Below are positions 25,713 through 56,136 of a DNA stretch of 64,000 nt, piece by piece. The position numbers were made by a program, and so were the translations under genes. The stretch is from Tubiluchus corallicola (lineage: Eukaryota; Animalia; Priapulida): the NCBI GenBank assembly GCA_030141605.1, contig JAQGDQ010000636.1:58002-122001 (forward strand), given 5' to 3'. Each line of letters starts with the position of its first letter. The stretch's first letter is position 1. A model generated the notes under the pieces. It worked only from the letters and a program-made list of their open reading frames with translations, was not told the DNA's origin and searched no databases.

Positions 25713-26388
25713 GCAGGGTGCCCACACTGTATCTCGACACTAGTAGCTGTACAAGCAGCCAGCGGCTTGAGTTACAATTGTATAGGATTATAGCACAATG
25801 CCAAAGAAGACACGTTAGCGCTAAATATTCATAATGTCACTTTCATTGCAAAAATTCTTCTAGACATTTGGAATTTTCTTCCTGTATGATATGATAAGTC
25901 GTCAATGTGCATTTTATCTGTAGTAATAAAATTAAAACTATTTAAATTTACCATTTCAGATTATAAAAACTTTTCGAATTTCAGTTTCAAATTTACTAGC
26001 ACTAATTTTGGCACTAATTATGGCTAATTGTGCTCAGATTTTAAACTCAAGCAAATTTACATAAAATATTTAATAGATTTCATACATACACTTTCTAATA
26101 TCTGTGGTCTAACAGTCTGACCATTCACACAAACCTGCCCATAGCAACTATCCTGCCACATTACCTAGCATTCCACTCTTTATCAATTTAACCACTATGT
26201 GGGGCTAGGTGGGATAATAGGCAAATTTTATGTAAAATGATCATTTTTTGACTGAACAGAAATCATTAATAACAATAACACTTATTGTGCAGCTCTAATT
26301 AGCTGCCCAAGTTTTTCACCATTATAATTATTGCAATATCTAATTTTCTCTTTATCTTATAGAGTCCATGTGCAACAGATAAACAGGC

Positions 26389-30627: not shown

Positions 30628-30882
30628 CTAGACATCTATGATTTGCAGACTTGATGTTACATGGGCATTAAAACTTTGATTTCCAAATACATAATCTGAA
30701 TAAAACTGCTCTATGTCAATCCATATGGCATAGTGGGCAAGTCTAACTCCCAAAATCACCATAGATTTGTCATATCCTTCAAATTTTTGCTCTCTGTATG
30801 CTGAATCTTTAACATTTGCTTGTTGAATGCCAACTACTTCCCTTGTTGGTGTGTTTAGTACATATGGCCCACCAGATTCACC
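30628..30882 (-). CDS. Trypsin-fold protease, alternative terminal exon 7B (Ser form, GESGGP)
   Basis: Starts tatagcag|ggt. GESGGPYVLNTPTREVVGIQQANVKDSAYREQKFEGYDKSMVILGVRLAHYAIWIDIEQFYSDYVFGNQSFNAHVTSSLQIIDV then stop. Paralogous to exon 7A (EVVGI, WIDIEQ). Confidence 0.8.
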   Translation of the reverse strand, partial: GESGGPYVLNTPTREVVGIQQANVKDSAYREQKFEGYDKSMVILGVRLAHYAIWIDIEQFYSDYVFGNQSFNAHVTSSLQIIDV

Positions 30883-31597
30883 CTGCTATAAGAAAATACA
30901 ACATAATGATTGCAGTGAACAAGAAACACCTAAAATACAACATAATGATTGTAGTGAACAAGAAACATGTAAATGATAATCTACAGTAAAGTGTAAAGTT
31001 TCATATTTGATATCGTTTGTAATACTTTCACTAGTTTTGCATTTAATTATTTGTATTTGATGTTGCTTGTATTGGTAGTTTGTTTTTAACACTATTGCAC
31101 ACAGCAGTTTTTGTAACTGATTATACAAAATTGTATATGTGTATGTGTTATAATAAGGAGAACTTGCTTTTTTAATTTAAATAAAAAAGTTAATTGAAAT
31201 TTTGAAGAAAATTTCAAAAACTAGTACAACGTATTACTAATATTGTTAAGGTTTTCTCTCCTTTGCATTGATGCCAAGGTGCTTTGTGGGTTAAATTACA
31301 ATTTGCTTTAACTAGATACGACCTTTGACCCTTCGGCTAAAGTTATTACTGACCCCATGGCTATCGAGGAGCGGATTATGTCCACACATATTAAAGCCGC
31401 CCCCCCAAAAAAAATTAAGATCATTTTGATTCATAATTATTACGATTTCCAAAATCTTTGGCTGATCACACTTTTACAGCATCAGTATCAAAAACATCAT
31501 CGAATTGTCAGTTATCATTATTAAAAATCAAACATCATTTTTATCGCACAATATCAATAAGTCCATTTAAAAATGACTCCTCTCATTATAAATAAAG

Positions 31598-31735
31598 TTG
31601 TTGTTGCTGTTGTTGCTGCTGTTTTTATTTGTTGTTGTTGTTGTTCTTGTTGTTGTTGTTGCAGCTGCTGCTGTTGTTATTTGTTGTTGTTGTTGTTTTT
31701 GTTGTTGTTATTGCTGTTGCTGTTGTTGTTGTTGT
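31598..31735. repeat. (GTT/GCT)n microsatellite
   Basis: Direct reading. Confidence 0.85.
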
Positions 31736-32156
31736 GGAATTGATGTTAGGGTGTCGTTGTTATTGTCATCATTTTATTATTTTACTATTCGATTACTTAA
31801 TTAATTAATAATTAGTTATTAATTAATTATTTATTAATTATTATATATTAATTAATTAATAGCAGGCAGTACGGTAAATAATTTAATTATGGGGAGGCTA
31901 TCAGAAAAAAATGAGAAGAGAGTGTCACCTACGTCACATTTATAATTTTTCATAAATTTCTCCAGTTTTTTTGTTATTTGAGAAATCAGATTTTACATGT
32001 TTGTAAATTTTAATCAACCTGCTTGCAATTTTTCCACATTTTAGGAAATGTTTGTACATGTCACATATCTCCTTGCGAATATATTGTCGTCATTTCACAA
32101 TCAATATAAATTTTTTAAATAAAATCTTGTTATTTCTGTAATTACTAATTACTTAC

Positions 32157-32284
32157 AAAGCCAGAGAAGACTCCAGGATGGTGCGCACAGATGTAAATTC
32201 TTGACCTAAACATCTCACAACGACCTCCATCAGTGACTGTGAAGGTCGCCTTTTGCAGGTTAAAATATGGTTCATGGGGTGTGT
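32157..32284 (-). CDS. Trypsin-fold protease, alternative exon 6B
   Basis: Bounded by tttcag|ac and ttt|gtaagt; 128 nt, same length and phases as exon 6A. (D)TPHEPYFNLQKATFTVTDGGRCEMFRSRIYICAHHPGVFSGF. Confidence 0.8.
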
Positions 32285-32812
32285 CTGAAATATGAAGCTG
32301 GTGAGTGAAGTATATCCCACTTCTGACACCATGTTTTATGTTGATGTACCTGGATTTCTATCTAGTAGAAATAACGAAATACAGTATGCCATTATGCGTG
32401 TTACCGAACTACTATTTTACATTGCGTTCTGACGCATTAATAGATAACAGTGAGAAAGTTGCCACTCACGGTGAAGGATAATGGCCGATATTGATACAAT
32501 TTGTCACTTCATGGTTTTCTGAAATTTACATTTCCTTGCAGCTAATCTTGTTCAAGTCAGTGAGCTTAAAGGAAAAGCTAACTCTTCTAGGAGACTAGTC
32601 TTATTTCAATGTTCATGAAAGGATTTAAAAATTAAACTGCAATAAACTAAATTGAAAAAAAAGCTGCAAACAGTCAGTCATTCGTTAAATGTATAATAAG
32701 TTTTTACAGAAAAATTAGCGAGCTAATTTCGAAATATGTTTGCATGGATATTAAGTAAGCTGCAGAAATTTGAAATAGTTCAAGAAGCTCGCTTGCGAAA
32801 AGTCAAAAAGTC

Positions 32813-34296
32813 TGTTATGAATAAATTTCGGAATCATGAATTAAGTGATTAATTAATGGAGTTATCAACTTCATTAGATTATGTTGATAAAGAGACCTCC
32901 TAATTGGATTAGATAAATTTATTGAAAGATTATAGGAACTCACTTAGCTGATAAAGCATATATTTAATGCGAGGCAAGAAATTATCGTCACAAGTTTGTG
33001 TTTACAAGGAATAGAACAGGTGTTCATTTAGAGAGTAAAAGTTTGTCACAGGTGTTTGAGTTTAGGGGAAGGTAAGCTGATTTTTATAACATTGCGTGGT
33101 TAGATAATAAACCTCATGTAATATTATGCGGAGTTGCTGTACTATAATTGTGAAGAAGCAGAAAGTGGTTCTTTTCTTGAACAAGGGTTTGTAATCCAAG
33201 CGACGCAAGGAGCAAAGGACGAAGCCGAGTAGCAGAGTTTTTCTCATGTAAGACCTGGCCATCTGGATGGTCATAAACCACCAAGCCACAAACGTGACCC
33301 CTGAACTATTGCGAAGCATTGCAGCGTTCGCGCGCAATCTTACGAAGACTCCATTAGAGTATATAAGATGGTGTTTTGGAAGAGCACGTTGCTAGTCGGT
33401 TGCGGAACACGTTGTGAGTCAGTCCGGGAGAGAGGAGATCAAGTCTGGAGAGGCTACAGGAATTCTGAGAGAAGCAAAGACACGCTAGACCCAGCGTAGA
33501 CAACAATCTGCGTCCTCAACGATTTGAGCACTGGATCTGCGGATTTGACCAATTGAACAGTTGTCATTGGTCATTCCACCAAGTTAAGTGATCTTAACAT
33601 ATTGTAACTTGAGAGCAACTCTGCATAGTAAATTCACAGTGTAATAGACACCTTAAGTGTAACTTGTAGTTGATTGTAATTGCATATTTCACATTGTAAT
33701 TAGCACCTTAAGTGCGAAGCGAGGAAATAGTTAAGTGAATCTGATTAGTGTCTCTTGGAGCTAATTATTAATTGTGAGCGTCTTTGGCGATTAAGATCAA
33801 ACATTGTAATATTAGTTGACTAAGAGTAATTGTTGTGAACAATAAACGGATTTCGCTTTAACTTAAATGAATAGTTTGAGTATGCTTATAGGTGTTTCAG
33901 TTAAGCAACATTAAATTCTGAAAACGAATCTGAAGATTTGCTCTGTACATTAAGTAATTTACGAGTTCAATTGCGGGAACTTTTGCTAGTAAGCTTTAGA
34001 GATTAAGACTCTCTTCACAGCGCGGAGTCATAGAAACAGTCTTGTGAGAAGTTATCATTGCTCTATAGACTTTATCTTAAGCTCTAGGAGCCAGGTTGTA
34101 AATAACCTTATAGCAATTAGTGCAATAGAGGCAAATCACTTAAATAAGTCGTGTGTCTTACGTCACGTGTTATACGATCACGAGCGAGAGATAAGAATCA
34201 ATATTAATTAGAGAGATTAATATTACATGATAACGACAACGATAATTGGTACTAGTGACCATAGTAATAAAGATAGTATAACTGGTGAGCCGTGAC
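32813..34296 (+). mobile_element. Probable LTR (solo or truncated) of an LTR retrotransposon
   Basis: TGTT start, GC-richer interior, TATATAAG at about 33360, AATAAA at 33841, ...TATTACA at about 34227 and a PBS-like TGGTGAGCCGTGAC at 34283. No target-site duplication could be fixed. Confidence 0.4.
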
Positions 34297-34829
34297 CAAG
34301 ATATACACTATAAGTCTCCAAGTCACGTCATAATGTTCAAGTGAATGTTCAAGTGAATGGTAACAACAGTCTCACCTGAAAATTTCTATTCAGAGAGAGT
34401 ATGTTTTAAATTGATGCTTTATTAGCAGTTCTTTGCAAATTTCGTTGTTATATTCTTCTACGTTCAAGCGATAACAGTAAAATAAACCCAACATTACGAA
34501 TGACTTGTTCTTTCCTTTAATACGATGCTATGTAATTGATGATACATTGCTCTGTAAACTGCAGCGTATGATACTGATACATATGATACATTGTTCTCTA
34601 AACTGTAGCATTATACAAAAAGCACAAACAGTAAACATTTAACAAGGAGAATATTTCGAAATACATAACAATAAGAATTTATTTTATTTAAATTTTATTA
34701 AAAATACGTTGTGCACAATTTTAGCCAATCAAAGATATAATTTGCTTTTAGAAAGTGATACTCAAAGCAGAAGTGATGAGACAATTTTTTCTTAAAAATT
34801 ATAAAACAGTACCTAAAAGTTCTTTTTTA

Positions 34830-35144
34830 TTATTTACTTTGATTTTTAATAATCATTAAAAAACTCGTAGACAATATTGTAATTATAGAGATCGCTGTTG
34901 TGTCATGTCCTAGAGCTCCTTCAGATGTTACAGGGGCGACAAAACCTTCGTCTCCATACTCATACCTTGAAAAAGCCTGCTCAATATCAATCCATGCTAA
35001 ATAATAGCTAATTCTTGGTCCTATTATTATTGAATTTTCATCAAGATGTGGCTGATCGTCCGGTCCTTGACCTGAACTGCCTTGAAAAATGCCAACAACT
35101 TCCAGAGTTAGTGGGTTTAATAAAAGCGGTCCACCACAATCACC
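34830..35144 (-). CDS. Trypsin-fold protease, terminal exon 7A (Cys form, GDCGGP) with hydrophobic C-tail
   Basis: Starts ttctgtag|ggt gat tgt ggt gga ccg. GDCGGPLLLNPLTLEVVGIFQG...IIGPRISYYLAWIDIEQ...EGALGHDTTAISIITILSTSFLMIIKNQSK then stop. Confidence 0.85.
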   Translation of the reverse strand, partial: GDCGGPLLLNPLTLEVVGIFQGSSGQGPDDQPHLDENSIIIGPRISYYLAWIDIEQAFSRYEYGDEGFVAPVTSEGALGHDTTAISIITILSTSFLMIIKNQSK

Positions 35145-36284
35145 CTACAGAAAGAATATAAATAAATAAATATATATATATATAATAAATTTATATATAA
35201 GCATATATATATATGCATATATTTATGCATGCAGATACTACGCACTTATACTCATGTATGCACACACTCACAGCTTCATATGAGTCTGCATGCATGTGAT
35301 TTATGTGTGTGCGTGCATGCGTGTGTGTGTGCGTGTGTGCGTAAATTTGTGTGTGTGATATTTATAGTAATAAATCTTCATACATATTAATACATTCAAA
35401 ACTTCCATGTCATAATTACAGGTGTATTTTTTAAAAAAGGATTAGAAAGATCTAAATGTCGTTTATTTATTAAAAAGATGCAGCTTTACATATTGTGTGC
35501 GGTTATCAATTGATATGGCAATTATGCCAATCATTTGTTATAAACATGTCCCCAATTTCTTCACATTAGAGAAACTTACCCGTTCAGTGTTACACCTAAT
35601 TTCACACGTATTTTTAGTGAAATTTTACTTTTTTAATACAAAGCGAGTTTATTGGTAGTTTGTATTATACCTTATTGTTTTCAGATGTTTATTTGGGGTT
35701 TGTTTGCTGTTTTTAAAAAAATTAATGAGTCTTGTTATGCTGAAGGTGTTGAGTAGTAGCAAAGGCACAAAAAATTTTGCACATCAACGCATTAATAATC
35801 AATAAGACGCGAACATCCTACACAGTGTTCATTTATAAATATTTATCTAACGCAAACCCTGAAGCAGCTTTTGCTGAAGCAAAGTTAAAGCCTGAATACA
35901 AGAGAATGATGCTAGAACCATGCAAACGTGTAGCTTGTAAGCGAAAATCGCCCAAAATGGAACCTCCGATTAACTCGTTACCACTCCTCTTGGTGAAAGT
36001 GCGCAAACATGTGACCGACATTGTCGTGTAGCCCTGTTAATCGTCTTTCCTAAGAACTAAACATATCCCAGTGTCCCACCATGTGCTGCTATAACTTTCT
36101 TCTTACATGCTGTTTGGTTAATATTTTTGGTATGTCTTTCCCTCAACAAACTAATTTCGCTTTACCCACAAATAATGTAAATTGCCCAACGAGATTAAAT
36201 TTAGTGAACTAAGATTTGTCATTTTGCTGAATTTTACCCGTTCATGTAGTTTATAAGAATAAGTCTACTATTGCTATTACTTAC

Positions 36285-36412
36285 CCAGCCACCAATACGT
36301 CCTGGGTGGTGTGCACAGATGAAAAGCCTTTGGTCATAGTCTTTGCAATCACCCCGATCAGTAACTACGAAGTAACCCTTCTGCAACCGATCTTTTTGTT
36401 CTTTTGGTCTGT
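36285..36412 (-). CDS. Trypsin-fold protease, exon 6A
   Basis: Bounded by ttttag|ac and tgg|gtaagt; 128 nt. (D)RPKEQKDRLQKGYFVVTDRGDCKDYDQRLFICAHHPGRIGGW; retains the Cys168/Cys182 equivalents. Confidence 0.85.
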
Positions 36413-36635
36413 CTAAAATATTCGCATTGGTGTCAACTACATTTCCTTACTGCTAATGTAGTTCAATTCAATCGGCCTAATAGAGTACGACTAATAAAAG
36501 CAGCAAATGTGAAGACAAAACAGCTCTCTGTGAATCATAACACCTGGAGGATGACAAACGCTGCAGTGCTGAAATTACTTTTCACAATTAATTGCAAGTC
36601 TTTAAATAGTCAAAATATAAAAAAACATTGCATAC

Positions 36636-36819
36636 CACTCCATATATCTGATCCCCATCCTACAAGAGTAATTACTCGGTTCATGTAACTAATTCTGTCA
36701 GATATAGGTAGTTTTGCAGGTCGAATATATTCGCTGAACTCAACAAGTTGGTTTAATCGCAGAAAAGCAATATCATTGTTAGGCTCATCATATCCTTCAT
36801 GAATTTTGTAAAAGTGAAC
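36636..36819 (-). CDS. Trypsin-fold protease, exon 5 (catalytic Asp102)
   Basis: Bounded by ttgcag|gtt and g|gtatgc; 184 nt. VHFYKIHEGYDEPNNDIAFLRLNQLVEFSEYIRPAKLP...TLVGWGSDIWS (NDIA.L.L and GWG motifs). Confidence 0.9.
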
Positions 36820-37625
36820 CTGCAATAACAAAAACAACTAAAATTTAGAGACACTTGCATGTACTTCAATCTAACTTGTCATTAGATATCAGAAAATGAC
36901 TAAATATCAAATCCAGGCCTAAGTGACTGTAAGCAAATTGGGGAAGGGGGTGCAAAAACATCCTTCATTAAACTGCTGTTTGGTGCTTCACCAGAGGAGA
37001 GGGGTTCTGACTTTCAGGAAAAAATAATTGCCGGGCTAATAATTGTTTCCCATGAGGTAAAGCATAAACAATAAAGCACTGTTGAAATGAATCAGGAAAT
37101 GAAAACCGGAAATCTCTGTAAGCGATTTTGTATGAGTAAAAACAACAAGTAAAGAAACCTGAACCCTATCACAACTTAACCTGTGAAACATTATTTGCAT
37201 TGTTTGTAAGCCCTAGAGTAACTGATTAAATGGGCAGGATTTTCTAGAGGACTAAAAAATGAAGAAATAACCAGAAAATTAGGGAAGGGGTGTGCAAAAA
37301 CATCTATAATTCACTGCTGTTTGATGCTTCACCAGAGGAGACTGATTCGCCTGCAGGAAGCAGCCTAAGCTAAGTGATTAAATGAACAGAGTTTTCTGGA
37401 AGACTGAAAAGACTAATGAGAGTCGAGATATTTGTAGAAATTAGTTTCATGTAAATCTGAGGATTTAACTCCGTTCCAACAGAAACGTTTACAAGGTTAC
37501 AAGGAAAAATGTTAAAGATACATATCTCAATAAAAGTAACTTATGTTACTAATGGCGTAGAAAAATGACATCAAGATGTTGCTAAACACTTCATATTATA
37601 CCGTGTGATGGAAGATAAAACTTAC

Positions 37626-37701
37626 ATAGCGTTCTGCTCTTGGTTGATTTAAATGGATGCTTCCAAGAAATGCCGTAATGTGTCGCCCTGGTGCTATGTG
37701 A
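37626..37701 (-). CDS. Trypsin-fold protease, exon 4
   Basis: Bounded by tttgcag|t and tat|gtaag; 76 nt, phases 2 and 0 fit its neighbours. HIAPGRHITAFLGSIHLNQPRAERY. Confidence 0.8.
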
Positions 37702-38075
37702 CTGCAAAATAATTATAACTGCATGTAAGCAATTGTAAACCTCATATTTTAAATACTTCAATTCAACTACAATTGCATCTTAGATTTCTCACTCTGAAAA
37801 ACCATAAGGCCTGAATTGTTACAAGTAATAAAATTAGTTGCTGAAAACACCTTGTACAAAAGCGACCTCTAGAATATTGATTACTGGAGGAAGCAGCATG
37901 ACGTACACACACTTGTGTACACGTCTCTGGTATTTTTGTGCGACTTTAATTGCTATTATGCTAATGGTAACCGAAATAAAAATCTATACAAATCTATATG
38001 AAAAAACTGTCTACAGATATATAATTTATTTTAAGCACTATGTCGTACACACCACATCATAGCATGAATACTTAC

Positions 38076-38185
38076 TCTCTAAACATGTGAGCTACCGTTA
38101 GAACATGTCTGTCATCGATAAGCACTCCTCCACCTTCGATGGTACCACCAGTATCCCAAGGAAAAGCAGGACGACTTAGCCTAAC
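38076..38185 (-). CDS. Trypsin-fold protease, exon 3 (catalytic His57)
   Basis: Bounded by ttttaag|gtt and ga|gtaagt; 110 nt. VRLSRPAFPWDTGGTIEGGGVLIDDRHVLTVAHMFR, compared with the canonical CGG.LI...WVLTAAHC. Confidence 0.88.
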
Positions 38186-39923
38186 CTTAAAAATGCGTAA
38201 TTGTTACTACACACTGAGAGTTTATGATTATCACTGCTGCATCAACAAAAGACGTTAGTTAATTCCTTCCCGATTGGCACATACATTTACCCATTATTTG
38301 TGAGGGGCAAAAACAATACCTTATTAGCTAACTTACAACTCTCTAAATTCAATAAAATTTGGAAAAGAAACGACTAACGTACAAGTAAATCATATCAAAA
38401 CAAAATAAGTTCTGTTCCTTTCTTCCTTTTCTAAATTTAAATAAGTTGTTTCGCAAACTAATAGATAAAAATTTTGCTTTGCACTTCTGCAGTAACTCGG
38501 GGTGGAATCGACGTTTATTAGCTCCGACTATTATTAGGACGCCAAGGTAATTTTTGCGACACCTGGGCGTGTACTCACAGAATGTAACAGCAGCTTGTGT
38601 TGTTCAGTTTTGTAAGCTGACTTGGTGTTTCTTTTGCATAATCAACTCACAGCCAATCCTTAAAGCTTATCAGCGATTGAAATGCCTAGAAACTATAAGT
38701 TCATTATCTTATAACTAGTATGCATTTATTTGTGGTATGTTATTACATGAAAAATTGCATGCATTGTATGCGTTTTTTTAAATTTGGAAAGATTTCACGG
38801 TATGATCAGACTAGAATTATAGTTAATTTCGCAAAATGGGACAGTAACCAAATTGTTAATGTTCCATTCTGTACATTTCACTGGATAGCAGTCAGTACGC
38901 TGCTAGACTTTGTCTTTCCATCAGTGAATGTGCATTGTAATTATATACAGAGCTACTCTATGGGGATCCTGGCTGTCACTTCAACAGCGCACTGGACTGT
39001 CGTTATAACTGGCGTCCAACGTAATGTCAATCAATTTCGTCGACTGACCAATCAGCGTACAAGTTATTTCACACAGCAGCAGAGCTTAATTAATGCAGAT
39101 ACGTTCGGGACATTTAGCTACAGCTGCTTCTAACACTGGTGTGAAAAATGCTCAACTTTTCATTAGTTAGCGGGAGAAATATTGGCCTAATTCTTGATTT
39201 TATTATTGCCAATTGAAATTGCAAGTGAAATAGTGGACTTATATAGCCTTGTTTCGTTTGTAGGAAGAAATGCACAACGGTTATGTCTATGAGTTGCACT
39301 TTATATGCAGATTTTATGCTGTTTAGTTTAGTTTATGGCTTTGCAAGTTAGATAAATCAACTATGTTACTAACTTTACATAAGGACAAAACAAAATGTTC
39401 ACACAGTCAATCTTGATCGTCACAGTCAAGATTAATTCAAATGTGGCCAAAACCTATATTCTTTAGTCGAGGCAGTTATTGTTCAGTCTGAGCTATTGTC
39501 CCGAAAACCACTGAGTGTGCTTAAGTTACAGCGGAGGCAGAGCGATGACCAATATGTTTGACGTGGCCTATGGTGTAGGGCAGGCCCACCTGTAGCAAGC
39601 TGTTACATTCCTGTATTCCTGCTAAGTTTTGGACATTTTGGTATTGGGATGTCAAAACTACACAATTAGTCGCGCCGTGAAAGAGGTAATGCAAAAGCAA
39701 GAAACCTTGAATCTGTTGTGCAAAATCTTGATTTAGTTTTTGTCATAAGAACTTCTCAATGCACTTTTTAAAATCACAAAGAAAATAGTCTTTTGCACTA
39801 GTAACTTCAAGATTGTCATTTCTTTAACCCTTAAATTTGATTATAAAAATTCTAGCACCACATTTAAATTGAAATGTGAAGTAAAATAAAAAGACCTGCA
39901 AAAAGACAAATTTGAACACAAAC

Positions 39924-39988
39924 CATAAATGGAAATTCTCCTTCTTCAGCATTTTCTCCACCATGAAGTCTCGGTTCAACCAGCAGCT
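39924..39988 (-). CDS. Trypsin-fold protease, exon 2 (zymogen activation site)
   Basis: Bounded by gttacag|ag and atg|gtttgt; 65 nt. ELLVEPR-LHGGENAEEGEFPFM, compared with the canonical R-IVGG..A..GEFPW. Confidence 0.85.
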
Positions 39989-40516
39989 CTGTAACAAGTA
40001 TTGTTTTCTACTTTAAAAATAATAATAGAAAAGCAAATTTCAACTTTTCACTATCATTTTGCTTTGTAAAAAGTCGTTGATTACGTGTCCATGAAGCCAT
40101 ATTAGATGATATTCGTTTCACGTTGCAAGGTTTACAATGTCGTAGTGGGTACATAGGCCATTTTTTGGTTTTAATTTAGTTTTCAATTACTGCCACGGTG
40201 TTGCCACCTGTTTGTTTATTTAGTAGGCAGTTAACTTTTAACAGTAGTCACTCTTTTAAAATTGAAGCACCTAGTGTCCTTCAATACATTAGCATTTTGG
40301 ATAATTATTGCTGTAGTAGTTGTGTGGCATTTTACCCGCCTTATGGTTCTCTCTGCCATTGCACTATTCTCCTGACTGTGATGAGCATTATGAATGTGAA
40401 TTTCTTACGAATTTATTGTTGTGACATTGCTGTTCTTAAGGCAACTTGGAGTTCTCATTCCTGTCTATGTAACTGCTAAAGGCTCTAACAACGTAACTTG
40501 CTATTAATTAATTTCA

Positions 40517-40642
40517 AGTTTTATAATATACTCAATGCAAGTTACAAGGTTTATAATGTACTCAATGCAAGTTGCAAGGTTTATAATGTACTCAATGCAA
40601 GTTGCAAGGTTTATAATATACCCAATGCAAATTGCAAGGTTG
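40517..40642. repeat. 30-bp tandem repeat, about 4 copies (protease intron 1)
   Basis: aaggtttataatgtactcaatgcaagttgc repeated. Confidence 0.9.
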
Positions 40643-40797
40643 CATGCTCGATTAAGACATTGTCTGCTTTGACAACCTTTAATGATGTCTTGTCTCCTCA
40701 TCCATATGAGATGGTTAGAATCTAAAAAATGTTTGAAATTGCAATTTTAATGCAACTTTTAACGGAAAAATTATTCGCACGGCCAAGTGAGACTAAC

Positions 40798-40933
40798 CTT
40801 TTTCATTTATACCAGGAGTAGAATTAGAAGACTGATTCGCTGCAAAGAAACATTTGCCAGTGTGGAACCATGTGGTGAAGATGAATAGAAATGTAGTCGC
40901 AGGACAGAGTGCTGCAGGCACTAATTGCAACAT
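40798..40933 (-). CDS. Trypsin-fold protease, exon 1 (signal peptide / propeptide)
   Basis: Bounded by ttttcag|caATG and g|gttagt; 136 coding nt, phase 1 fits exon 2. MLQLVPAALCPATTFLFIFTTWFHTGKCFFAANQSSNSTPGINEK has a hydrophobic N-terminus. Exons 1-7A join to 1014 nt (337 aa). Confidence 0.72.
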
Positions 40934-43516: not shown

Positions 43517-44012
43517 ACAACAATAATCAGCAAGCAGCTTTAATCGCTATAATAAACAGACTTTAATGCAACCACTATACCAATTATTTTACTGCAAGAA
43601 TTTATGGAAAACGTGCTTCCCTGCTGGCCAGAAGACAATTTTGCGGTGTTTACTCTGCTTTTGAGTTGCTAAAGTGCATCAGACGACAACGACATTAAGA
43701 AAGACCCTTACCTGCTAGTTTCAATGAAAAACACTCTACCTTATAATTTGCCGGGTCACCATGACCCCTACCTGCTAGCTTCATTGTGAACACTCAACCC
43801 TGTAATTTGCTGGGTCACCATGACCCCTACTTGCTAGCTTCATTGTGAACACTCAACCCTGCAATTTGCCAGGTCGCCATGACCCCTACCTGCTAGTTTC
43901 ATTGTGAACAATCTACCCTGCAATTTGCTGGGTCGCCATGACCCCTACCTGCTAGTTTCATTGTGAACAATCTACCCTGCAATTTGCCGGGTCGCCATGA
44001 CCCCTACCTGCT
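43517..44012. repeat. Composite repeat A: unique head plus 59-bp minisatellite (about 5 copies)
   Basis: Head caacaataatcagcaagcagctttaatcgctataataaac...; unit catgacccctacctgctagtttcattgtgaacactctaccctgcaatttgccgggtcgc. Second copy at about 51509-51950. Confidence 0.88.
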
Positions 44013-44490
<478 letters not shown>

Positions 44491-45072
44491 ATAATTAAGT
44501 TATAATTAACTTTTTATTAGATCAGAAATTAGTTTATCTGTTGCCTTCTAATTTGTTACTAATGCATAAATAAATGACAGTGCATTATTCATCAGTAGAT
44601 CTTGTGTAATCATTTTAGCTTATCCTATCCTAAGAATCATTTTATTTAGCACCTATGGTCAGTATTAGTATAACATCAACAACATCAAGAATCAACACAA
44701 GAATGCCAAATACAAGGACAACATACGACCATACAGTCCTGTTACTCTTATTCTAGTATTAGACTTTATAGTATACTATAGTTGTACAGCCTATAGAAAT
44801 AATTGCTGTAAAATAGTATAAAAATTTAATGAAGTAGAGCACACATTGAAAAAATTGTTTAATTTTAAATACTCAAATTAATTTTTATTTTAAACATTAA
44901 ATTGTAAATAATTAGAATTGATAATACCTCTATTAAGACATAATAAAATGAATAATAGTTAAGCTATAAAGGTGCCTTTAAATTTTCTGTTTACGTATTT
45001 TACTGCAGTATAAAAGTATATTACTATAAACGATTTTAAATTAAAGGAAATATATATTTTTGCTTTTGCATG

Positions 45073-46288: not shown

Positions 46289-48835
46289 TCAGAATTTGAA
46301 TTGAGAACATTTCTGATGTATCCCCACATAACTTTTCAAACTACAGGGAAGACTCCTGTAATCAACATTATTGGCAGCTATGATTCTTGCACAACAACAT
46401 TTCAAATCGAGTTTGCAAGCAAGAAAAGAATTCTCCATTTCATTTATAATTTCTTCCCCGATTTTAGTTAGGTCGCTAAGTGAACCAAGACGCTGCATGA
46501 GTTCTTCCAGCATCTCATAGTTAGTCATTCCATCATGTCCTTCAGCATCAAGGTGCAAACCATGCTCCAGGAACAACTTGTACGTTTGCATCAGCGCTGA
46601 ACTACACATGTGTGGTGCGTAAACACAGTTTAGGACTTTTTCAAAAAGAATGCCAAAAGCACTTTTTCCATCACTGGTAACTAAATTGATATCCAGCCCC
46701 CTTTGGTTTTTAAATAAAACTTCCAGCATGACATACAGGTCTTGCCAGTGCGGTATTCTGCTAAAGTACTTCTTCTTGCTAGTTAATGCATTCAAAACTA
46801 TACTGTATACAGTGTGCAGAGTTAATACATTCATAACTGGACTGTGTACAGTGCGCAGAGTTAAAACGTCAACAAAACGCGCCCCTTTATTGAGTAAGAA
46901 GTTTAAAAGATTGGCTTGTTGAAGCAGAGCTGCAAATATGCCTGTTTTCTCTTCTTTACTGCTCACTCCATTTTCGTTTAGTGAATGCTGAGATGACTGA
47001 CTTAGGATTCTTCCACTGTTTTCTCTTATTTGACTTGGCAATTTTGCTTGTGTTTTACTTTCAGAACTGAAAAAACACTTTGCGTTACTGCTCTGGTCTT
47101 CATCCTGGTTAGCCAGAAAATTTTTTACTTTAAAGTAAAAACTGACTGCAAAATCCTGCAGCGATTTCCCATTCACATCACAAAGATTTGCTCCTGCCAC
47201 TTTGTCAAAGTACATCAACATTATTATCTTAAGTGAAAGGCAAAATGTTGAATGCAAAGACTTATGTTCAGCTTGGTGAAACCCCGCAGTGATAAAGAAA
47301 CCATTTTCAGTTTTTAATTTACTTGCTTTTGTTTCATAATTTTGAGCATCTTCTGAATACAACAAATATTCGTCTTCTTTGCTTTCATCAAATACATGGA
47401 CACCTTTATCGGTGAGTAACTTTGCTATTATTTCCTGAGTGTTTTGAAGAATCAAATATGGTGAAGAATGCCTTTCATCATCTGCGTGTGTAATAATTAA
47501 TTGTGCCAACATTTCCGAATAGAAATCAAATGCTAACTCTGTTGGTGATAGAACTTCTGTGCTTTCCTGAATCCTACAGGTGTCTGTCTTAAATACTACA
47601 GATGTTGTTGTTTCAAGTGAATAACAAAGTTGGTGAAGAAGAGAGTGACTCTCATCAGCTACATCTTCAAATTTGTTATGTAATAATAGTTCTAGTATTG
47701 TCTTCAAAATTGCATAAACCGCAAAAAGCACATTTTTGTTTCTCTGGCCATTTAACAACAGTGTCATTAGAAGAAGAAAATTGAGAAATGCATGTTCCAC
47801 TGATGTTCCACACCCAACTATATCGTTAACATACGCACCATTGTTTATGAACAATTGTGTTATTGCTTGTAACATCAGAATATCGCTGTTTTCATTCATG
47901 AGAGGTTTAGATCGTTCAATGAAATCTTTTAGTAAATAGTGTAATTGTTCTTGGGCCTTACATAACGAATCAAAATTTACATTGGCACCACTATCAATTA
48001 ACAAGCTCACAATTTCTTCTTTGGACCAGAATATTGCAGAAGCTAATAGAGAATTCCCGTGTTTATCAACATTGTTTACATCGGCACGATTATCAATTAA
48101 CAACTTAACAATCTCTTCATTGGATCGCCTGACTGCCTCACCTAGTGGAGAACCCCCAGATTTATTAACCTGATTTACATTAGCGCCCTTGTCAATTAAC
48201 AACTTCACAATCTCTTCTTTAGACCAAAAGGCTGCATAAGACAGCGGAGAATCTCCAGGTTTATCAACCTCATTTACATTCGCACCACAATCAATTAATA
48301 ACTTCACAATCATTTCAGACTTAAGTGAAGTGGCTAAACAAAGAGGAGTTCTTCCATAACCATCAACCTGATTAATATCAGCACCTTCTTTGATTAACAA
48401 TTTCAAAACACTTTGGTAAGATCGACGTGCAGCAAGATGTAATGGAGATTCATTGTTAGCTCTTTGGGAAACCATATTAGCATTTACATCAGATCCATTA
48501 TTAAACAATAATTCCACCATAGCATGAACTGTTTTTTCATCTGTGTTTTCTGAACAGTCAAAGACAGCATGTATTGGTGATATTTTGACACGTTGAGATG
48601 CAGTAATTTCGGTGCAAGCATTCACACATGAACCGTAAGACAGAAGAAGTGAAGCCAAGTTCAGATTCACATTTTCACAAGCGTAATGTAGAGGTGTGTA
48701 TCCACGCTCATCAAGTGCATTAACGTCAGCACCTTTTTGAATAAGATCTTCAGCTAGTTTAGTATCTCCATTTTTCTTACAAACACTGTGTAGCAACGTA
48801 CGATCGCCTAGTTCACGTTGTCGATTAAATGCCAT
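46289..48835 (-). CDS. Ankyrin-repeat protein with FEM1-like C-terminal BC/VHL-type box (848 aa, intronless CDS)
   Basis: About 8-9 N-terminal ANK repeats (GYTPLHYAC, ESPLHLAA, GRTPLCLA, EIVKLLIDKGANVN), degenerate ANK repeats later, and C-terminus LDLKCCCARIIAANNVDYRSLPCSLKSYVGIH. Likely 5'UTR intron: acceptor at 48954-48956, donor at about 49735. Confidence 0.88.
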   Translation of the reverse strand: MAFNRQRELGDRTLLHSVCKKNGDTKLAEDLIQKGADVNALDERGYTPLHYACENVNLNLASLLLSYGSCVNACTEITASQRVKISPIHAVFDCSENTDEKTVHAMVELLFNNGSDVNANMVSQRANNESPLHLAARRSYQSVLKLLIKEGADINQVDGYGRTPLCLATSLKSEMIVKLLIDCGANVNEVDKPGDSPLSYAAFWSKEEIVKLLIDKGANVNQVNKSGGSPLGEAVRRSNEEIVKLLIDNRADVNNVDKHGNSLLASAIFWSKEEIVSLLIDSGANVNFDSLCKAQEQLHYLLKDFIERSKPLMNENSDILMLQAITQLFINNGAYVNDIVGCGTSVEHAFLNFLLLMTLLLNGQRNKNVLFAVYAILKTILELLLHNKFEDVADESHSLLHQLCYSLETTTSVVFKTDTCRIQESTEVLSPTELAFDFYSEMLAQLIITHADDERHSSPYLILQNTQEIIAKLLTDKGVHVFDESKEDEYLLYSEDAQNYETKASKLKTENGFFITAGFHQAEHKSLHSTFCLSLKIIMLMYFDKVAGANLCDVNGKSLQDFAVSFYFKVKNFLANQDEDQSSNAKCFFSSESKTQAKLPSQIRENSGRILSQSSQHSLNENGVSSKEEKTGIFAALLQQANLLNFLLNKGARFVDVLTLRTVHSPVMNVLTLHTVYSIVLNALTSKKKYFSRIPHWQDLYVMLEVLFKNQRGLDINLVTSDGKSAFGILFEKVLNCVYAPHMCSSALMQTYKLFLEHGLHLDAEGHDGMTNYEMLEELMQRLGSLSDLTKIGEEIINEMENSFLACKLDLKCCCARIIAANNVDYRSLPCSLKSYVGIHQKCSQFKF

Positions 48836-51414
48836 TCTCTTGATTCAACAAAAACTAATTATTGTATGAAATACTAGATTTTCATAATCCTTTTTAGATT
48901 GCTGTCTAATTTTGTACGTGTGGCATCTTTTGTTTTGGCACAGCAGCGACTTTCTGCAAAATTCAAACAGAAAAAATAAAATTGTTACCTGAAATATTAC
49001 TATTGTTTAGTTAGAAAGGAAATTTCTACTTACAACAAAAAATCTTTCATTCACGTTCAAGCTAAAAATGTCTATAAGATCTACTTTCTTTAGAAGGCCA
49101 CATTCTAGACACTATTTATGTAATCCTTTCATGCTCAGTGGTCAATTTCTGATTATTTTGCTTTCACTTTTGCATTTAGCTGTTTAGCATTGCCTTTTTA
49201 ATACATAGATAAAGCAATAACTCTCAGACTAAAGCCAAAATACACATGTTACTGGAATTAACTCACCCTCCACTTATTCTCTGAAGCTGCAACACAGGAA
49301 CTTATACTGCTGGATTAGAAAATTAGACAACATATTAATAAATTGATTTTGCTGCCAGAGAAAAGTACATCAAGTTTCTCAAAAAGATGTACAGACCTTA
49401 AGCGGTAGCCTAAATACCTCCTATTTACTTTACATACTTTTAGACTTTTAAATTAACTTATTACACAAAGCAATGAAAACAAAATTGCCCAAAAATATTA
49501 ATTCGATGCTTAATGCCAGAATTAAATGTGCTAAATAAGTAAAGGAACGTCGGCGTTATTAAGAATCAACTGCTAACGTTTTTTCCAGTAACATTGAATA
49601 ATGTTTCACTCCAAGTTTGCGTATGGACTGCATAAGATACATAAAGGCTAAAATTGTGTTCTTGCTTCCATGTGTGAGGCTCTACTAATAATTAGCTGAA
49701 ATAATTGTACAAGAAACTTTCAATTTTAATACTTACATTTTTGTTGTTTTCCTGGCACTCGTTCAAAATTTCTTCCTGATATTATAACAGAAAATTTTAC
49801 GCTTATTCCACTTTAGACGACGTTAGAGAACATTTTGCACCACCATTAAGTATCAAAGGTTGTTATTGACGTAAATGCAACGAGTTGTATCCGTCTGCTC
49901 TAGTTGAGTGGGAAGTTACGTGGTTGTGTAAATAAAGGCAGTAGAGAAAGTTTTATATAAGAGTAAAGTTCGGCTAACACGCCACTTAATGTTTGACATT
50001 TGCATTCCACCATTTGCTGTATATATATGATAATTATTGGATTTAAAATAAGATTTGTGACTTGTAAGCCAAAGTCGGCATTGTTAAACTACATTACGAT
50101 ACTTCAAAGTAGAAAGCAGCATAAATTTGGCCAAATGTCTATTTTTTATTTTTTCTGAAAACAAATGACCTGCCACATTTCATTACATTACATTGACACG
50201 TGTTTCTGCCTTGTCCATGTTTTGCTGTGCTTGGCTTAATTACCAGAATTTAAGCAGTTATATTCAGTATGAAGAAATGATTTAAAAAACTGTTCTAGTC
50301 TACATATGCATTTGCATGAGATTACACTGTATCACATTGTAATGATTCGTACTGAAGCTCTACACAGTGCAACTTAATTCATAGTAATGCAAAATTTACA
50401 TTGAACATCAGACGCCATTGCCATTGGTGGAATTTACTATTTACTGTGTAATTGTTGTATATATGTAAATGTTTTATGCTATGAATCTTTGAAATAAAAA
50501 TTTAATTAAAACAAATTAAATCAAATCAAAATGACTGTGCCGCGACTGTTTTGAGCCTATTGAAATCTCGAGCGCCATGAAAGCCTGGCTCAAACTCTTG
50601 GCTATTTTTATCCATTATCGGATACCAGTTAAAATAATTTGTTACCATCTGGTAGTGGTGTCACATTGTACACGTGGGTCCAAAAATGTCAGCATTTTAT
50701 CCTTCGTAAACTGGTCATGATCGTATTAAATACCTTTATTGCTTTAATAACACATTTTACAAACTGTGACATTGAAATTGCAACTGTACAATCAAGCATT
50801 TTCTATCTAAAATTTCGTTAAATAAACCGACAACATTTTGAAATTAATCTTATTGGAAAAAATTATTAAAAATTCGTTTTTATAATACCTTTAGCAGAAA
50901 GAAGGTCGCAGAAATTTTAGAGGGTGAAACCTTTACTTAAAAATTGTAACGTTTAAAGTACAGGTAGTAATATAGAAACTTTTTTATAATTTCGATAATG
51001 ACACTATGTGGAGTGTAGTAATTAAAATTATTCCTGTAGAATCATGCATTGAGGTTGTGCCTGCAATGACAGCATCATGTTCAATGTCATAGGCAGCCCG
51101 AGAAAGATCTTTCATGTTTTTAATCCAGTTCAAGTAATGTAGGACTCAGGGCCGGAACTAGATGTGGCAAGTGTGTGGGGGGGGGGGGCGCAAAAATTTT
51201 CTGGGGGAGGGGCGAGGTATCCGAAGTGGTTAAATAATGGTTAAGCCAATTATGTCCAATATCATTGGTCCTCCAGAATCCTCCTAAAAACAAATTGAAA
51301 CGCCTCATTAAGCACTTAATGCATTTACGAATTATCTCATCTAATGTTTAAAATGTTCAAACATTTCGTATTCAAACGTTTTATGTCTCAAGACATGTTG
51401 CATACTAGTAATTG

Positions 51415-51506
51415 ATGTTGTTGTTGTTGCTGCTGCCGTTGTTCTTGTTGTCGTTGTCGTTGTTGTTGTTGCTGTTATTGTTTTTTTGTTGTTGTTGCTG
51501 CTGCTG
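51415..51506. repeat. (GTT)n microsatellite, imperfect
   Basis: Direct reading. Confidence 0.85.
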
Positions 51507-51508
51507 TT

Positions 51509-51950: not shown

Positions 51951-54900
51951 TGATATTTTTGAAATATTTCATTTCCAAGCTTTTTTACAATCTGAAAGAT
52001 AGGTCAGCATTATAAATTGTATCTTTCGGTGTTCCACAGGACTGGTCACCTATAGGTAATGAAATGTTTTCATTGTTCCTGTGCGTTTGCTTCAGCCAAG
52101 CTTTTATTATTTTAAATAAGAAAGTTTTTACATCACTGAGTTTACTAACCTTTTTCGTTTAAACCTGGAGCAACCATGGAAGACTGAACTGCTGCACACT
52201 GACATGTGTCAAAGTAGAACCAAGTGGCAAACAATAACAAACATCTAGCGTCAACACGCACTTTTGCATGCATTAATAGCAACATTGCTGAAAACGATAT
52301 GACAAAATAAACAATGGAGTGGCATAATAAATGAGGCATAATAATCTAAACAATATTGAGGCTCCTTCCCTCTCTGACAAATAAAACAATTGCGATAACC
52401 AGGCCAGATTATATAAAAAAGTTTTATCAACCCTGGTTAATATGCTTCTCCCAAATCACGACCTGATACTAGATCACTTTTACCTCTGCTCTTTGGTGGC
52501 AATAAGGTGTACATTTGCTTTAAATTTTTTAACATATAATGTGACATACAAAAGTTATCGTACTTACAGTTTGTGAACAGTAAAAGAATGCTAGCAAAAA
52601 TTGCACTATTTGATTCACTTTTGCTCCAACTGCCCATAGAACATTAATTTTTTAACTAAACAACTTAGCGTATGACGTCATAGCATTCAAAATGCATAAT
52701 ATTTAATTCCATTTTGTTACGGAACAGCTACTTGCAGCAATTTTGTTAAAATAAAATAGGCTTACCAAGCGTCTTGAAATATTTTAATTTTGATTAGTTT
52801 GTCCTATATTGTCCATTTTCTAAGTCGTTTTGGGCCAAAGAAAAGAGTATGTTGTTGAGCAGGTGGGGTTCTCTTTTTGGAATGATTCTGGCTACCAATA
52901 TGTACAAGCAGAGAACTCAGATTAGGGAATTGGCCTTAAGACTCCAGAGAGAACAGGTATAAATGTGGATGTAACAGGAAGCTGACCTTGAGCAAAACTT
53001 AATCTAACTATTGATACTCTATAGAAAATTATTGTGAACTTACAATGTCTATCTATGTATATAGTCTTGCTCTATTTATGTTATGTATATATGCCTTTCA
53101 AAAGTTAAATGTTCATTCTTTTCGAAAAACAGTTTGTATAAAGTTTAATTTTGTTCTACACTGCTGCACAAATAATGTTAGAAAAATTAGAAATTACTGC
53201 AGTAACAGACTTTTGCATTTCTTTCGTCTTATAAGATTTCTCTTTGCGTTTTACAATAAGTTCCTGTTTTTCTTCCATATTCAAAGTTTTTCGTAGAGCG
53301 TTTCTGGACCTGTTTTTCTCAATGGTGTCTGTAACTTCTACGACGAAATGTAAACACCTAGGAAAGGTATTTAGGCACTAAACAAGACATTCAATGAAGG
53401 AAGCTTCTGGCATCAGTGTATTTCTTGAAATTTAAAATAGTTTTCAAAACCAAAAATAACTAGACAAACTGTAAACTTGGAGTCATTACCACTTTCTCAC
53501 AGGAAACAAATAATGAGAAAAGCCTTGCAGTTTATTATTTTGATCCATTCTTAAATGAAATCTGATTTCCACAATTCATAATTATAAGGACGAAATCCAT
53601 AACATGCCATGTTAATCGTAACGGTATTACAACTATTAATAACGTTGATACACAAATAAGTAGAGGAGCATCTAACATTAGTTCAACAGGATCTGGTGCA
53701 ATGTTTGCTAGACTTGTGTAAATATTATACATATGTTGTGGCAAACTCTCCTCGGGCTTGCATGCATGGTGATGGGTTGTCATGTGACAGTGCTAAGTCA
53801 CGGATAGGTGACGGGTAGCTAGGCAACAGGTTGCTAGGCGAGTGGTTGCTAGGCATTAATAAATTCTGAACCAACTATGATGCTTGCTTCACCAAAATTT
53901 TGCTATTATATGTAATGAAATGCATAAAAATAATTAAACCACTAATGCTAATTAAACTGTTCTATGAAAATTAGATTTAACGTGCACTTTTATTATGATA
54001 AAAAATATTGAATTAATTTGACATTTTTATGGTTAAAGTTAACAATTCACACACACAAGAAATTAATTCGTATAGTGGATGAGGGTTGAGCTAGGACTAA
54101 GATTAGGGTATTTAAGTTGCGAAGGACAATGTAAACCCTTTCGTTTTAGTAAATAAATTCGTATAGGATAGCTAATTATCCATCTTTCTATAAAATTCAA
54201 AACTGCAAGCCTTAAAAGTAAATAAGCATTTTTTAGTTTCAAAGACGTTTATAGAGACCAGTTCTGCTGAGGAAACCGAAAGCAGTTATGGTTCTTGTAT
54301 GCTTTATATACACTCACGATGTATATATATATGATAAAACCATTTCAATATCTTTTCTGCCTTTACATATTTACCTTTTTTCTGCATCTCTTTCATCTTT
54401 TATTTAATTTATTTATCTAATCGCATTAATTAAATCTGTCTTAACACTTGATTAGGAAATAGTGATGTTAACACAGTACAACAATTCTAGCTAAATAAAA
54501 AAGTCAAACATCTAGTTGTCATCCATACATAAATTATATCATTGCTTTATTTTCCAGTTAACTTAAATAATTCGCCCTCAGCTTTCGAATTTCTATAATA
54601 TCCAGTGATCTCTGTTCAAAATTTTGGAAAAGGTAACCAGTAGATGAAACATGTCAAAGTAACAAACTGAATTACACTGAAAACTCTGTGTATATGGTAG
54701 CAAAAATTATAAGAAATTATACATAATTTATGCAGACAAACTACTGTGACATTAGCTATAAAAGGTCAACAATTTTATGCATGAATCGATTTTTAAAGAT
54801 AAATTACAGCAAATGCATTTACCAAATTATGAAAATAATTTTTCTGTTTCCACGTTCTCTTTTAGACATTTTTATGCGCAGTTCGATATGCATCTTTTAA

Positions 54901-55983
54901 TGCTTTCAGATATCAGTTTCTTATTACAGCATCCGTCTATGGGCCTATTTCATTTATTCTATGCAAACACTTTTTTCAGTTATATCTAGGACTCTGTTCT
55001 GTGGAGATTTCATCATCCTATTCTAATGCACAAAAATGCATACATTTTCAAGAACAAGAATATTGATGTTTTACAATTTTCTTTGAAAAATTACTGAAAA
55101 ACTAAACAAATATTGTTAAGGAACAAATAAAGGTGATAGCTGCACAAAATGCAAAATGGTATGATCCAATTTTTCAAAGAAGTGCAGTAACGTTGGCAGG
55201 ATGACGCCTGACTTAACTAACGAATTAACAAGCACATATACTGGATATAAGATAACTTCAATTTGATCATGCAGAGCCCATAGCAACTAGCATTTTTTCA
55301 ATACTACACCTGCCAACTACATTGAATTAACAGACATGACTTTTTTCAATATTAATCTGAATATCAAAGATACGTGTTACACATGTCAAGAGGAATCGCT
55401 GTTGTTGTTGGTATTAAACAAACATCTTCTTCATACATTAAATATTTCATTATCTTATTTGAGATATTACACCCTAATTTTTACCTACATTACACACGGT
55501 ACAGAAGATACGATAATACATAAACTTTAAAATTAAAAAGAAAAAAAAACATTTTACGGCGTTGTTACGCTCAATTTGAAACTTGAAAAACTGCAAGTAG
55601 CTCTGACCAAAATGCTTTACGCCACTTAGTAATATGCAAATAAAGCTGGAATAGCAATGTTAAGAGCAGACTTTTTTAAGTGCTAGATATATCTGAAAGA
55701 AGTTAACATTATCAAAGGCTTTAGCAGCATCAATAAAATACGAACTGAACTTTCTCCAACAGTATAATAATTAATTATCTATTTTAGTAAACAAATACAA
55801 AAGGTATTGTAGAATTATAGAAGTGAAGAATAATGATGCCATCAAAAATTACAATTAAAGCCATATCAGTAGTAAAGAGTGATATTTTACGCTTTTGTTA
55901 GTTTAAGGTAAGTTCATTTGAGCGTACGCATCTGGATATTCCCCGGATTTGCAGTCATGTTTACACACACAAGAGCAGCGTTA

Positions 55984-56136
<153 letters not shown>

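What the first reader, a model, noticed from the sequence alone, without database searches (positions are those of the whole stretch)
34830..40933. Intron-containing animal trypsin-fold gene with a His-Asp-Cys triad (GDCGGP)
Seen: seven GT-AG exons join in phase to a 337-aa ORF. It has a signal peptide, an R-LHGG activation site, His57 (TVAHM), Asp102 (NNDIA) and a TGT (Cys) codon at 35138-35136 in the Ser195 position. Established: a chymotrypsin fold with a GxCGG nucleophile is the hallmark of viral PA-clan cysteine proteases such as picornavirus 3C, whereas animal S1A enzymes use GDSGGP. Inference: this is either a cellular chymotrypsin-like cysteine protease or a catalytically impaired serine-protease homolog with a reactive thiol. 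TCT to TGT is a single substitution, so conservation in relatives is the decisive test.
Basis: partly seen in the sequence, partly recalled or inferred. Interest (0 to 1): 0.85.

Follow-up and report, generated by a model that had tools for sequence, protein, structure and literature searches.

The report
Trypsin-like gene copy with cysteine swap
One copy in a fast-changing cluster of animal trypsin-like genes has cysteine where the cutting serine should be, while every relative that could be read keeps serine, so it is likely a weakened, cell-surface binding protein and not a new kind of cysteine protease.

Summary
The seven-exon gene, His57, Asp102 and the TGT codon at position 195 are in the assembly. 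All three family members whose residue 195 I could read have Ser: a duplicate exon pair 6B-7B downstream, a dead copy upstream (both TCT, one base from TGT), and the only database relative, P0002 (35% identical). Three close paralog contigs cross the codon, but the tool did not list their letters there. No RNA was available. Trypsin S195C is reported to lose about 10^5-10^6-fold activity. GDCGGP already occurs in a published moth serine-protease homolog that lacks His57. Best reading (0.55): a catalytically impaired, membrane-anchored homolog in a birth-and-death family with hypervariable binding loops. Rivals: decaying copy (0.25), true thiol protease (0.13), assembly error (0.04). The boldest reading left open is one gene that splices either a Cys or a Ser catalytic half onto the same exons 1-5. 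Unchecked scan notes report conserved-Cys trypsin-fold families on other DNA (bacteria, microbial eukaryotes), not this family.

The parts
40798..40933 (-). Exon 1: start codon, likely signal peptide and start of the pro-region
   Evidence: donor position shared with paralogous exon 1 at 52151-52285
39924..39988 (-). Exon 2: predicted activation site R|LHGG (mature start at residue 53)
38076..38185 (-). Exon 3: His57 (38089-38087); Cys42 and Cys58 absent (Gly, Met)
37626..37701 (-). Exon 4
   Evidence: aligns to P0002
36636..36819 (-). Exon 5: Asp102 (36774-36772), GWG motif; Cys122 absent
36285..36412 (-). Exon 6A: the one predicted disulfide pair (Cys168/Cys182 equivalents), residues 189-192 (Ile, Gly, Gly, Trp); Cys191 absent
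34830..35144 (-). Exon 7A: Gly193-Asp194-Cys195 (TGT 35138-35136), Gln214, hypervariable 214-222 loop, hydrophobic C-terminal tail, stop
34826..34831 (-). AATAAA overlapping the end of the exon 7A stop (candidate poly(A) signal)
32157..32284 (-). Exon 6B: diverged duplicate of 6A, same phases, intact AG/GT, open frame; no exons 1-5 of its own in the window
30628..30882 (-). Exon 7B: Gly-Glu-Ser-Gly-Gly-Pro (TCT 30876-30874), open frame, no hydrophobic tail; AATAAA at 30452
52151..52285 (-). Exon 1 of a dead paralog (copy C); no exons 2-6 found between it and its exon 7
50990..51283 (-). Broken exon 7 of copy C: Glu-Asp-Ser-Gly-Gly-Pro (TCT 51277-51275), then stops and an unrelated insert
55981..56133 (-). 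Last exon of a more canonical trypsin-like gene of the same cluster (Asn-Asp-Ser-Gly-Gly-Pro), same intron position just before residue 193

Best explanation
This is an intact, spliceable trypsin-fold gene whose Ser195 codon has likely changed by one base (TCT to TGT) in this copy of a rapidly duplicating family, and its product is likely a catalytically impaired, membrane-anchored serine-protease homolog that would bind partners without cutting them efficiently. Shown by sequence: the open frame, His57, Asp102, Gly193, Asp194, Cys195, a hydrophobic tail, Ser in the readable relatives, and neighbouring copies that are dead or partial. Inferred steps: the protein is secreted; it is cut after Arg52 so that Leu16 pairs with Asp194; it is held on the cell surface by a GPI or short transmembrane anchor; it keeps a binding cleft whose 214-222 loop differs between paralogs. 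Cys195 is the only unpaired cysteine of the mature chain, so outside the cell it would tend to be oxidised or to form a mixed disulfide, and the protein would act as a decoy, cofactor or recognition protein.
For: (1) Ser is the family state: 3 of 3 readable members have it (7B TCT, 7C TCT, P0002). Cys is 1 of the 6 amino-acid changes one base away from TCT. (2) A bare Ser-to-Cys swap cripples this fold: PMC6642262 says thiol-trypsin and thiol-subtilisin are inactive on common esters and amides (passage), and its supplement gives '105 to 106-fold' for trypsin S195C, which I read as a 10^5-10^6-fold loss. (3) Other active-site positions drift in the family. Position 214 is Gln in 7A, 7B and paralog P2, Ser in P1 and P0002, Arg in P3 (paralog residues read by eye from loose ends). 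Position 194 is Glu in 7B, and 193 is Glu in 7C. That Ser214 supports Asp102 is recalled knowledge. (4) Birth and death: three distinct paralog contig types cross exon 7A, one type also in a second study (X4), and copy C is dead. (5) Precedent: Plutella Px009637 has GDCGGP with His57 lost, 1 such motif against 139 'GDSGG' occurrences in that file. (6) The missing Cys42-Cys58 bridge is no special sign of thiol chemistry: human C1r lacks it too (C1r activity recalled), and exon 3 would be shared with the Ser-bearing B form.
Against: His57, Asp102, Gly193, Asp194 and an activation site are all kept, unlike the Plutella case. The Ser-bearing relatives are distant (31-43% identity to the A copy) or dead, so they fix the ancestral state but not the state of the close A-type paralogs. 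P1 and P3 differ from the window at only about 2 places in 35118-35141, so they may share TGT. No activity, expression or structure was measured; the binding role rests on analogy with other pseudoproteases (PMC13194640, passages).
Confidence: 0.55

Rival explanations
1. A decaying or silent copy: the TGT is a recent loss-of-function change (private allele or fixed by drift) in a redundant paralog with no selected role, or exon 7A is not used.
For: The cluster holds one dead copy (C) and one partial unit (6B-7B) within 22 kb. The window carries at least one apparently private exon letter: at 36309 (synonymous) both X4 contigs and 8 X1 contigs differ from it. Purifying selection between A and B exons is weak (pS 0.51, pN 0.39, Fisher p 0.075).
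Against: 337 open codons, all 12 splice sites canonical, and an AATAAA at the stop. The hydrophobic tail is also present in P0002.
Confidence: 0.25
2. A true cellular S1A cysteine protease: Cys195 is shared by the close A-type paralogs, and the fold has adapted to thiol chemistry (no nearby disulfides, changed 214-216), possibly with a Ser isoform made from exons 6B-7B.
For: Complete His-Asp-Cys set with Gly193, Asp194 and an activation site. Only Cys213, Cys223 and Cys236 remain in the mature chain, so Cys195 has no partner to mispair with. The fold supports Cys catalysis in RNA viruses (PMC6524800). The few differences in P1 and P3 around the codon leave a shared TGT open.
Against: 3 of 3 readable relatives have Ser. 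The single swap is reported to abolish most activity in trypsin. Cys191 is also missing in the Ser-bearing P0002 and B form, and Cys42/58 in C1r, so these losses are not tied to Cys195. The predicted location is extracellular and oxidising (inference).
Confidence: 0.13
3. Assembly or consensus error: the real codon is TCT.
For: The codon lies about 20 bases from a degenerate AT microsatellite (35156-35226), and close paralogs exist that could be mixed in assembly.
Against: An X1 contig matches the window with 0 differences over 35066-35116, just downstream of the codon (X1 may be the source sample, so this is not independent). Errors near such repeats are mostly insertions or deletions, not substitutions (recalled).
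Confidence: 0.04

Closest known systems
Peptidase family S1A (chymotrypsin/trypsin; Pfam PF00089); nearest solved structures fire-ant chymotrypsin 1eq9, earthworm fibrinolytic enzyme 1m9u, prophenoloxidase-activating enzyme 2olg
   Same: Motif order, His57, Asp102, GWG, Gly193-Asp194, zymogen-type N-terminus.
   Different: Cys at 195; only one predicted disulfide; Gln214-Gly215; Trp192; LHGG N-terminus.
Invertebrate serine-protease homologs, e.g. Plutella xylostella Px009637 (PMC4676143, supplement 5)
   Same: The same GDCGGP motif in an animal S1A sequence; by that paper's rule any sequence without the full His-Asp-Ser set is a homolog.
   Different: Px009637 has also lost His57 and keeps the usual cysteines; this protein keeps His and Asp and has lost most cysteines.
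Engineered thiol-trypsin S195C (Higaki 1989, Wilke 1991; seen only as cited and tabulated in PMC6642262)
   Same: His-Asp-Cys in an S1A scaffold by one substitution.
   Different: Natural, and lacks the Cys42-Cys58 and Cys191-Cys220 bridges that trypsin has.
Viral PA-clan cysteine proteases (C3 picornavirus 3C, C30, C4, C37)
   Same: Chymotrypsin fold with Cys in the Ser195 position and His plus Asp/Glu (PMC6524800).
   Different: This is a spliced nuclear gene of S1A ancestry, predicted extracellular, with Ser-bearing paralogs; no sign of viral origin; activity unshown.
P0002 (unnamed Logan protein, 253 aa, cluster of one)
   Same: Same family: 35% identity over 242 columns, no Cys191, aromatic 192, same hydrophobic tail.
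   Different: Has Ser195, Ser214 and Cys58.
GPI- or membrane-anchored S1A proteases (prostasin, testisin; anchoring recalled)
   Same: C-terminal hydrophobic tail after the protease domain; prostasin is among the exon 5 hits.
   Different: Those have Ser195 and the usual disulfides; the anchor here was not tested with a predictor.

Membership tests
S1A fold family (PF00089) | Sequence match to the trypsin domain | tested here: met
   Exon 5 at 36.1 bits over cut-off 20.6; exon 3 at 18.5 bits, just under; relative P0002 hits 68 solved S1A sequences
Active S1A serine protease | His57 and Asp102 | tested here: met
Active S1A serine protease | Ser195 | tested here: not met
   TGT at 35138-35136
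Active S1A serine protease | Ile16-Asp194 activation switch | tested here: inconclusive
   Arg followed by Leu-His-Gly-Gly and Asp194 are present; His17 is atypical; cleavage not tested
Serine-protease homolog (pseudoprotease) | Trypsin domain lacking one or more of His-Asp-Ser | tested here: met
   Rule in PMC4676143; Cys195
Serine-protease homolog (pseudoprotease) | No measurable proteolysis | not testable with these tools
   Needs recombinant protein
Serine-protease homolog (pseudoprotease) | Expressed as protein or mRNA | not testable with these tools
   No run on record as RNA was available for this stretch
PA-clan cysteine proteases (C3/C4/C30/C37) | Cys nucleophile with His and Asp/Glu in a chymotrypsin fold | tested here: met
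   By sequence only
PA-clan cysteine proteases (C3/C4/C30/C37) | Encoded in a positive-strand RNA virus polyprotein | tested here: not met
   Spliced nuclear gene with six introns; definition from PMC6524800
PA-clan cysteine proteases (C3/C4/C30/C37) | Cys conserved across the family | tested here: inconclusive
   3 of 3 readable relatives have Ser; three close paralog contig types unreadable at the codon
PA-clan cysteine proteases (C3/C4/C30/C37) | Triad geometry and thiol-dependent activity | not testable with these tools
   The spliced protein could not be folded; single-sequence model of P0002 failed (pLDDT 31)

The most novel reading that the evidence does not exclude
One animal gene carries two alternative terminal cassettes on shared exons 1-5: 6A-7A gives a membrane-anchored His-Asp-Cys enzyme and 6B-7B a tail-less His-Asp-Ser enzyme (317 aa, open frame, own AATAAA). 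Splicing would swap the nucleophile, the S1 pocket and the anchor together, and the Cys form, stripped of its neighbouring disulfides and shared with close paralogs, would be a working animal S1A thiol protease.
Probability: 0.08. Interest if true: 0.85.

Novelty: new variant of a known kind. Interest (0 to 1): 0.3.

Why it matters
On the best reading it is one more invertebrate serine-protease homolog, unusual only because it keeps His and Asp beside Cys. It is then a natural thiol-trypsin that could be assayed against the engineered S195C mutant. If the Cys proved conserved and active, it would be an animal S1A cysteine protease, a chemistry that PMC6524800 lists only for RNA viruses in this clan, and the A/B exon pairs would give a built-in Ser-versus-Cys comparison on the same N-terminal half.

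Tried and rejected
No whole genome is held, so paralogs could not be read from the assembly. Run search: 6 runs listed, 4 hold the stretch, no RNA holder listed; this is no evidence on expression. (X1, X4, X5, X6; 31900-40500): only 40 of 885 differences were shown, none at the codon; X6 (RNA only by guess) laid 4 short pieces, none on an exon. (X1, X2, X4, X5; 35066-35150): the window-type contig stops at 35116, before the codon; only 1 difference was listed (35111, Leu to Ile) although the pieces carry 2-9, apparently because differences near piece ends are not listed; X5 laid nothing. Summed depth was not used as copy number. Word-based protein searches: exon 7A longer, 0 of 71 candidates; exon 7A near, 0 of 4; exon 5 longer, 0 of 2. 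HMMER with a 7A+7B profile: 2 hits among 1.84 billion; P0001 (frog mucin, repeated 25-residue match) dropped as an artefact, P0002 kept. Metagenome scan: 4 of 440 stretches passed, all 14-23-residue matches outside the catalytic motif, rejected as chance. ESM Atlas gave only generic trypsin clusters. The fold of P0002 without alignment failed (pLDDT 31), so no fold search; the fragment alignment A2 was too poor to use. Rfam: 0 matches in 29500-57000. Earlier findings by sequence, by one word set and nearby: none. Paper searches with nothing relevant: GDCGGP in main text, 0 papers, 0 papers; 3 listings; 1 paper, viral Cys195 only; 2 listings; 24 of 27 listed, none on topic by title. Supplements of PMC10036332 (0 DCGGP, 130 DSGGP) and PMC4085338 held no further case; line-wrapped sequences could hide matches. 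The open frame of 6B-7B as proof of use was rejected: with substitutions only, the frame stays open in 70% of runs at 0.02 and 21% at 0.1 substitutions per site, so a recently truncated neighbour gene fits as well.
Full report
1. Observation. On the minus strand seven exons with GT-AG introns (40933-40798, 39988-39924, 38185-38076, 37701-37626, 36819-36636, 36412-36285, 35144-34830) join to 337 codons. Sixteen splice-site combinations passed my filter and two give 337 aa. The model used here is supported by a paralogous exon 1 that ends at the same donor and by alignment to a database relative from residue 96 on. His is at 38089-38087, Asp at 36774-36772 and TGT at 35138-35136. Exon 5 passes the Pfam Trypsin cut-off. 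The TGT is confirmed in the assembly only: the two read-laying runs could not show the codon.

2. Numbering is from alignments to solved structures. Cys42 is Gly, Cys58 is Met, Cys122 is Lys, Cys191 is Gly and Cys220 is Gln. The mature chain has three cysteines (213, 223, 236): one predicted pair and the unpaired Cys195. Position 214 is Gln, 215 Gly, 192 Trp. The C-terminus has a hydrophobic stretch (best 15-mer 2.37) that suggests a GPI or short transmembrane anchor; no predictor was run.

3. Surroundings. The gene sits in a cluster. Downstream lie exon 6B (32284-32157) and exon 7B (30882-30628), diverged duplicates with the same phases, intact splice sites, open frames and an AATAAA at 30452, but without exons 1-5 of their own in the window. 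Joined to exons 1-5 they give 317 open codons with Glu194-Ser195 and no tail. A against B: pS 0.51, pN 0.39, Fisher p 0.075, so purifying selection is suggested but not significant. Whether 6B-7B is an alternative cassette or the stump of a truncated neighbour is open; the simulation shows that an open frame excludes only a long-dead stump. Upstream, copy C keeps exon 1 and a broken exon 7 with TCT, with no exons 2-6 found. The last exon of a more canonical trypsin-like gene is at 56133-55981. In all four the intron falls just before residue 193.

4. Relatives. Three word-based searches found nothing (0 of 71, 0 of 4, 0 of 2 candidates). A profile of 7A and 7B against 1.84 billion representatives gave 2 hits. 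One is a mucin repeat artefact. The other, P0002, is a family member (35% identity to form A over 242 columns, E 2e-37; same loss of Cys191, aromatic 192, same tail) with Ser195, Ser214 and Cys58. So 3 of 3 family members with a readable residue 195 have Ser, two of them as TCT, and Cys is one of six amino-acid changes one base away. These relatives are distant or dead, which limits the test.

5. Close paralogs. Contigs from public runs show three further exon 7 types crossing the codon: P2 (X1, X2 and the second study X4; 8-9 differences in 72 bases), P1 (X1, X2; 2 differences in 55) and P3 (X2; 4 in 58). Only one difference was listed, so their residue 195 is unknown, and the counts do not favour TCT or TGT. 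Their loose ends, read by eye, are colinear and open but differ strongly in the 214-222 loop: P2 differs at 13 of 18 bases over six codons and then matches again, and position 214 is Gln, Ser or Arg. Contigs of X5, a third study, lie on exon 3 with 8 and 13 differences in about 70 bases. This is the pattern of a young, diversifying family whose binding loops change fast (inference). X1 and X2 may be the source sample and are not independent support.

6. Mechanism. PMC6642262 (passages and one supplement row) reports that thiol-trypsin is inactive on common substrates, tabulated as '105 to 106-fold', which I read as a 10^5-10^6-fold loss. The loss of the Cys42-Cys58 bridge might be taken as an adaptation, but human C1r lacks it too (activity recalled), exon 3 would be shared with the Ser-bearing B form, and Cys191 is missing in Ser-bearing relatives. 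With Gln214 and a predicted oxidising location, I commit to an impaired homolog (0.55): secreted, processed after Arg52, anchored at the cell surface, binding partners through a variable cleft as a decoy or cofactor, with a thiol that is likely oxidised or in a mixed disulfide. All of these steps are inferred. Roles of pseudoproteases as ligands, cofactors or scaffolds are described in PMC13194640 (passages). Against this reading: His57, Asp102, Gly193, Asp194 and the activation site are all kept, and the close paralogs may share the Cys. Rivals: decaying or silent copy 0.25, real thiol protease 0.13, assembly error 0.04.

7. Comparison with what is known. It belongs to the S1A fold family and meets the sequence definition of a serine-protease homolog (PMC4676143, passages). 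It is not a member of the viral C3/C4/C30/C37 families, which PMC6524800 (passages) lists as the cysteine proteases of clan PA. GDCGGP gave 0 papers in main-text search, but a supplement of PMC4676143 holds Plutella Px009637 with this motif and no His57 (1 case against 139 GDSGG occurrences). Two other insect catalogues held none (supplement searches). Searches found no paper on a natural animal His-Asp-Cys S1A protein; the library lacks most subscription journals, bioRxiv supplements are closed, and most catalogues were not searched. PMC5508998 was read as passages only; other listed papers as listings only. Unchecked scan notes describe conserved-Cys trypsin-fold or HtrA families in bacteria and microbial eukaryotes and call this genome a probable priapulid. 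I tested neither.

8. Verdict. Real feature, new variant of a known kind, interest 0.3. The reading worth chasing is the splice-level Ser/Cys switch with an active thiol form (probability 0.08, interest 0.85 if true). Reading the codon in the paralogs from the full assembly and one RNA data set would settle most of it.

Noticed in passing
window 30628-32284 (-): Duplicate exon pair 6B-7B with Ser195 and Glu194, in frame with exons 1-5; either an alternative terminal cassette or the stump of a truncated neighbour. Repeat-rich DNA lies between 7A and 6B.
   Followed up: partly
window 50990-52285 (-): Dead paralog with exon 1 and a broken exon 7 only; exons 2-6 not found.
   Followed up: partly
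window 55981-56133 (-): Last exon of a canonical-looking trypsin gene with Asn at 193; the motif scan found none of its earlier exons in 57000-64000.
   Followed up: partly
window 35057-35087 (-): Hypervariable 214-222 loop: three paralog contig types are colinear and open here but differ at most codons.
   Followed up: partly
window 36932-37000 and 37273-37341: Two 70-base copies, 87% alike, inside intron 4; no Rfam match.
   Followed up: partly
window 46289-48844 (-): Single open frame of 851 codons with N-terminal ankyrin repeats and an unassigned C-terminal half, between the gene and copy C.
   Followed up: partly
window 9638-11110, 16829-17680, 26383-27567 (+): Three open frames with C2H2 zinc-finger arrays (recognised by eye).
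   Followed up: no
window 8475-9575 (-): Fragment resembling the end of a LINE reverse transcriptase (recalled resemblance), flanked by short tandem repeats.
   Followed up: no
window 60989-61345 (+): Open frame that starts like a signal peptide; possibly an exon of another secreted protein.
   Followed up: no
window 43942-44513, 57183-59000, 61700-64000: Long simple repeats and satellites.
   Followed up: no
window 36309: Synonymous letter in exon 6A where 8 X1 contigs and both X4 contigs differ from the window: possibly private to this copy or haplotype.
   Followed up: partly
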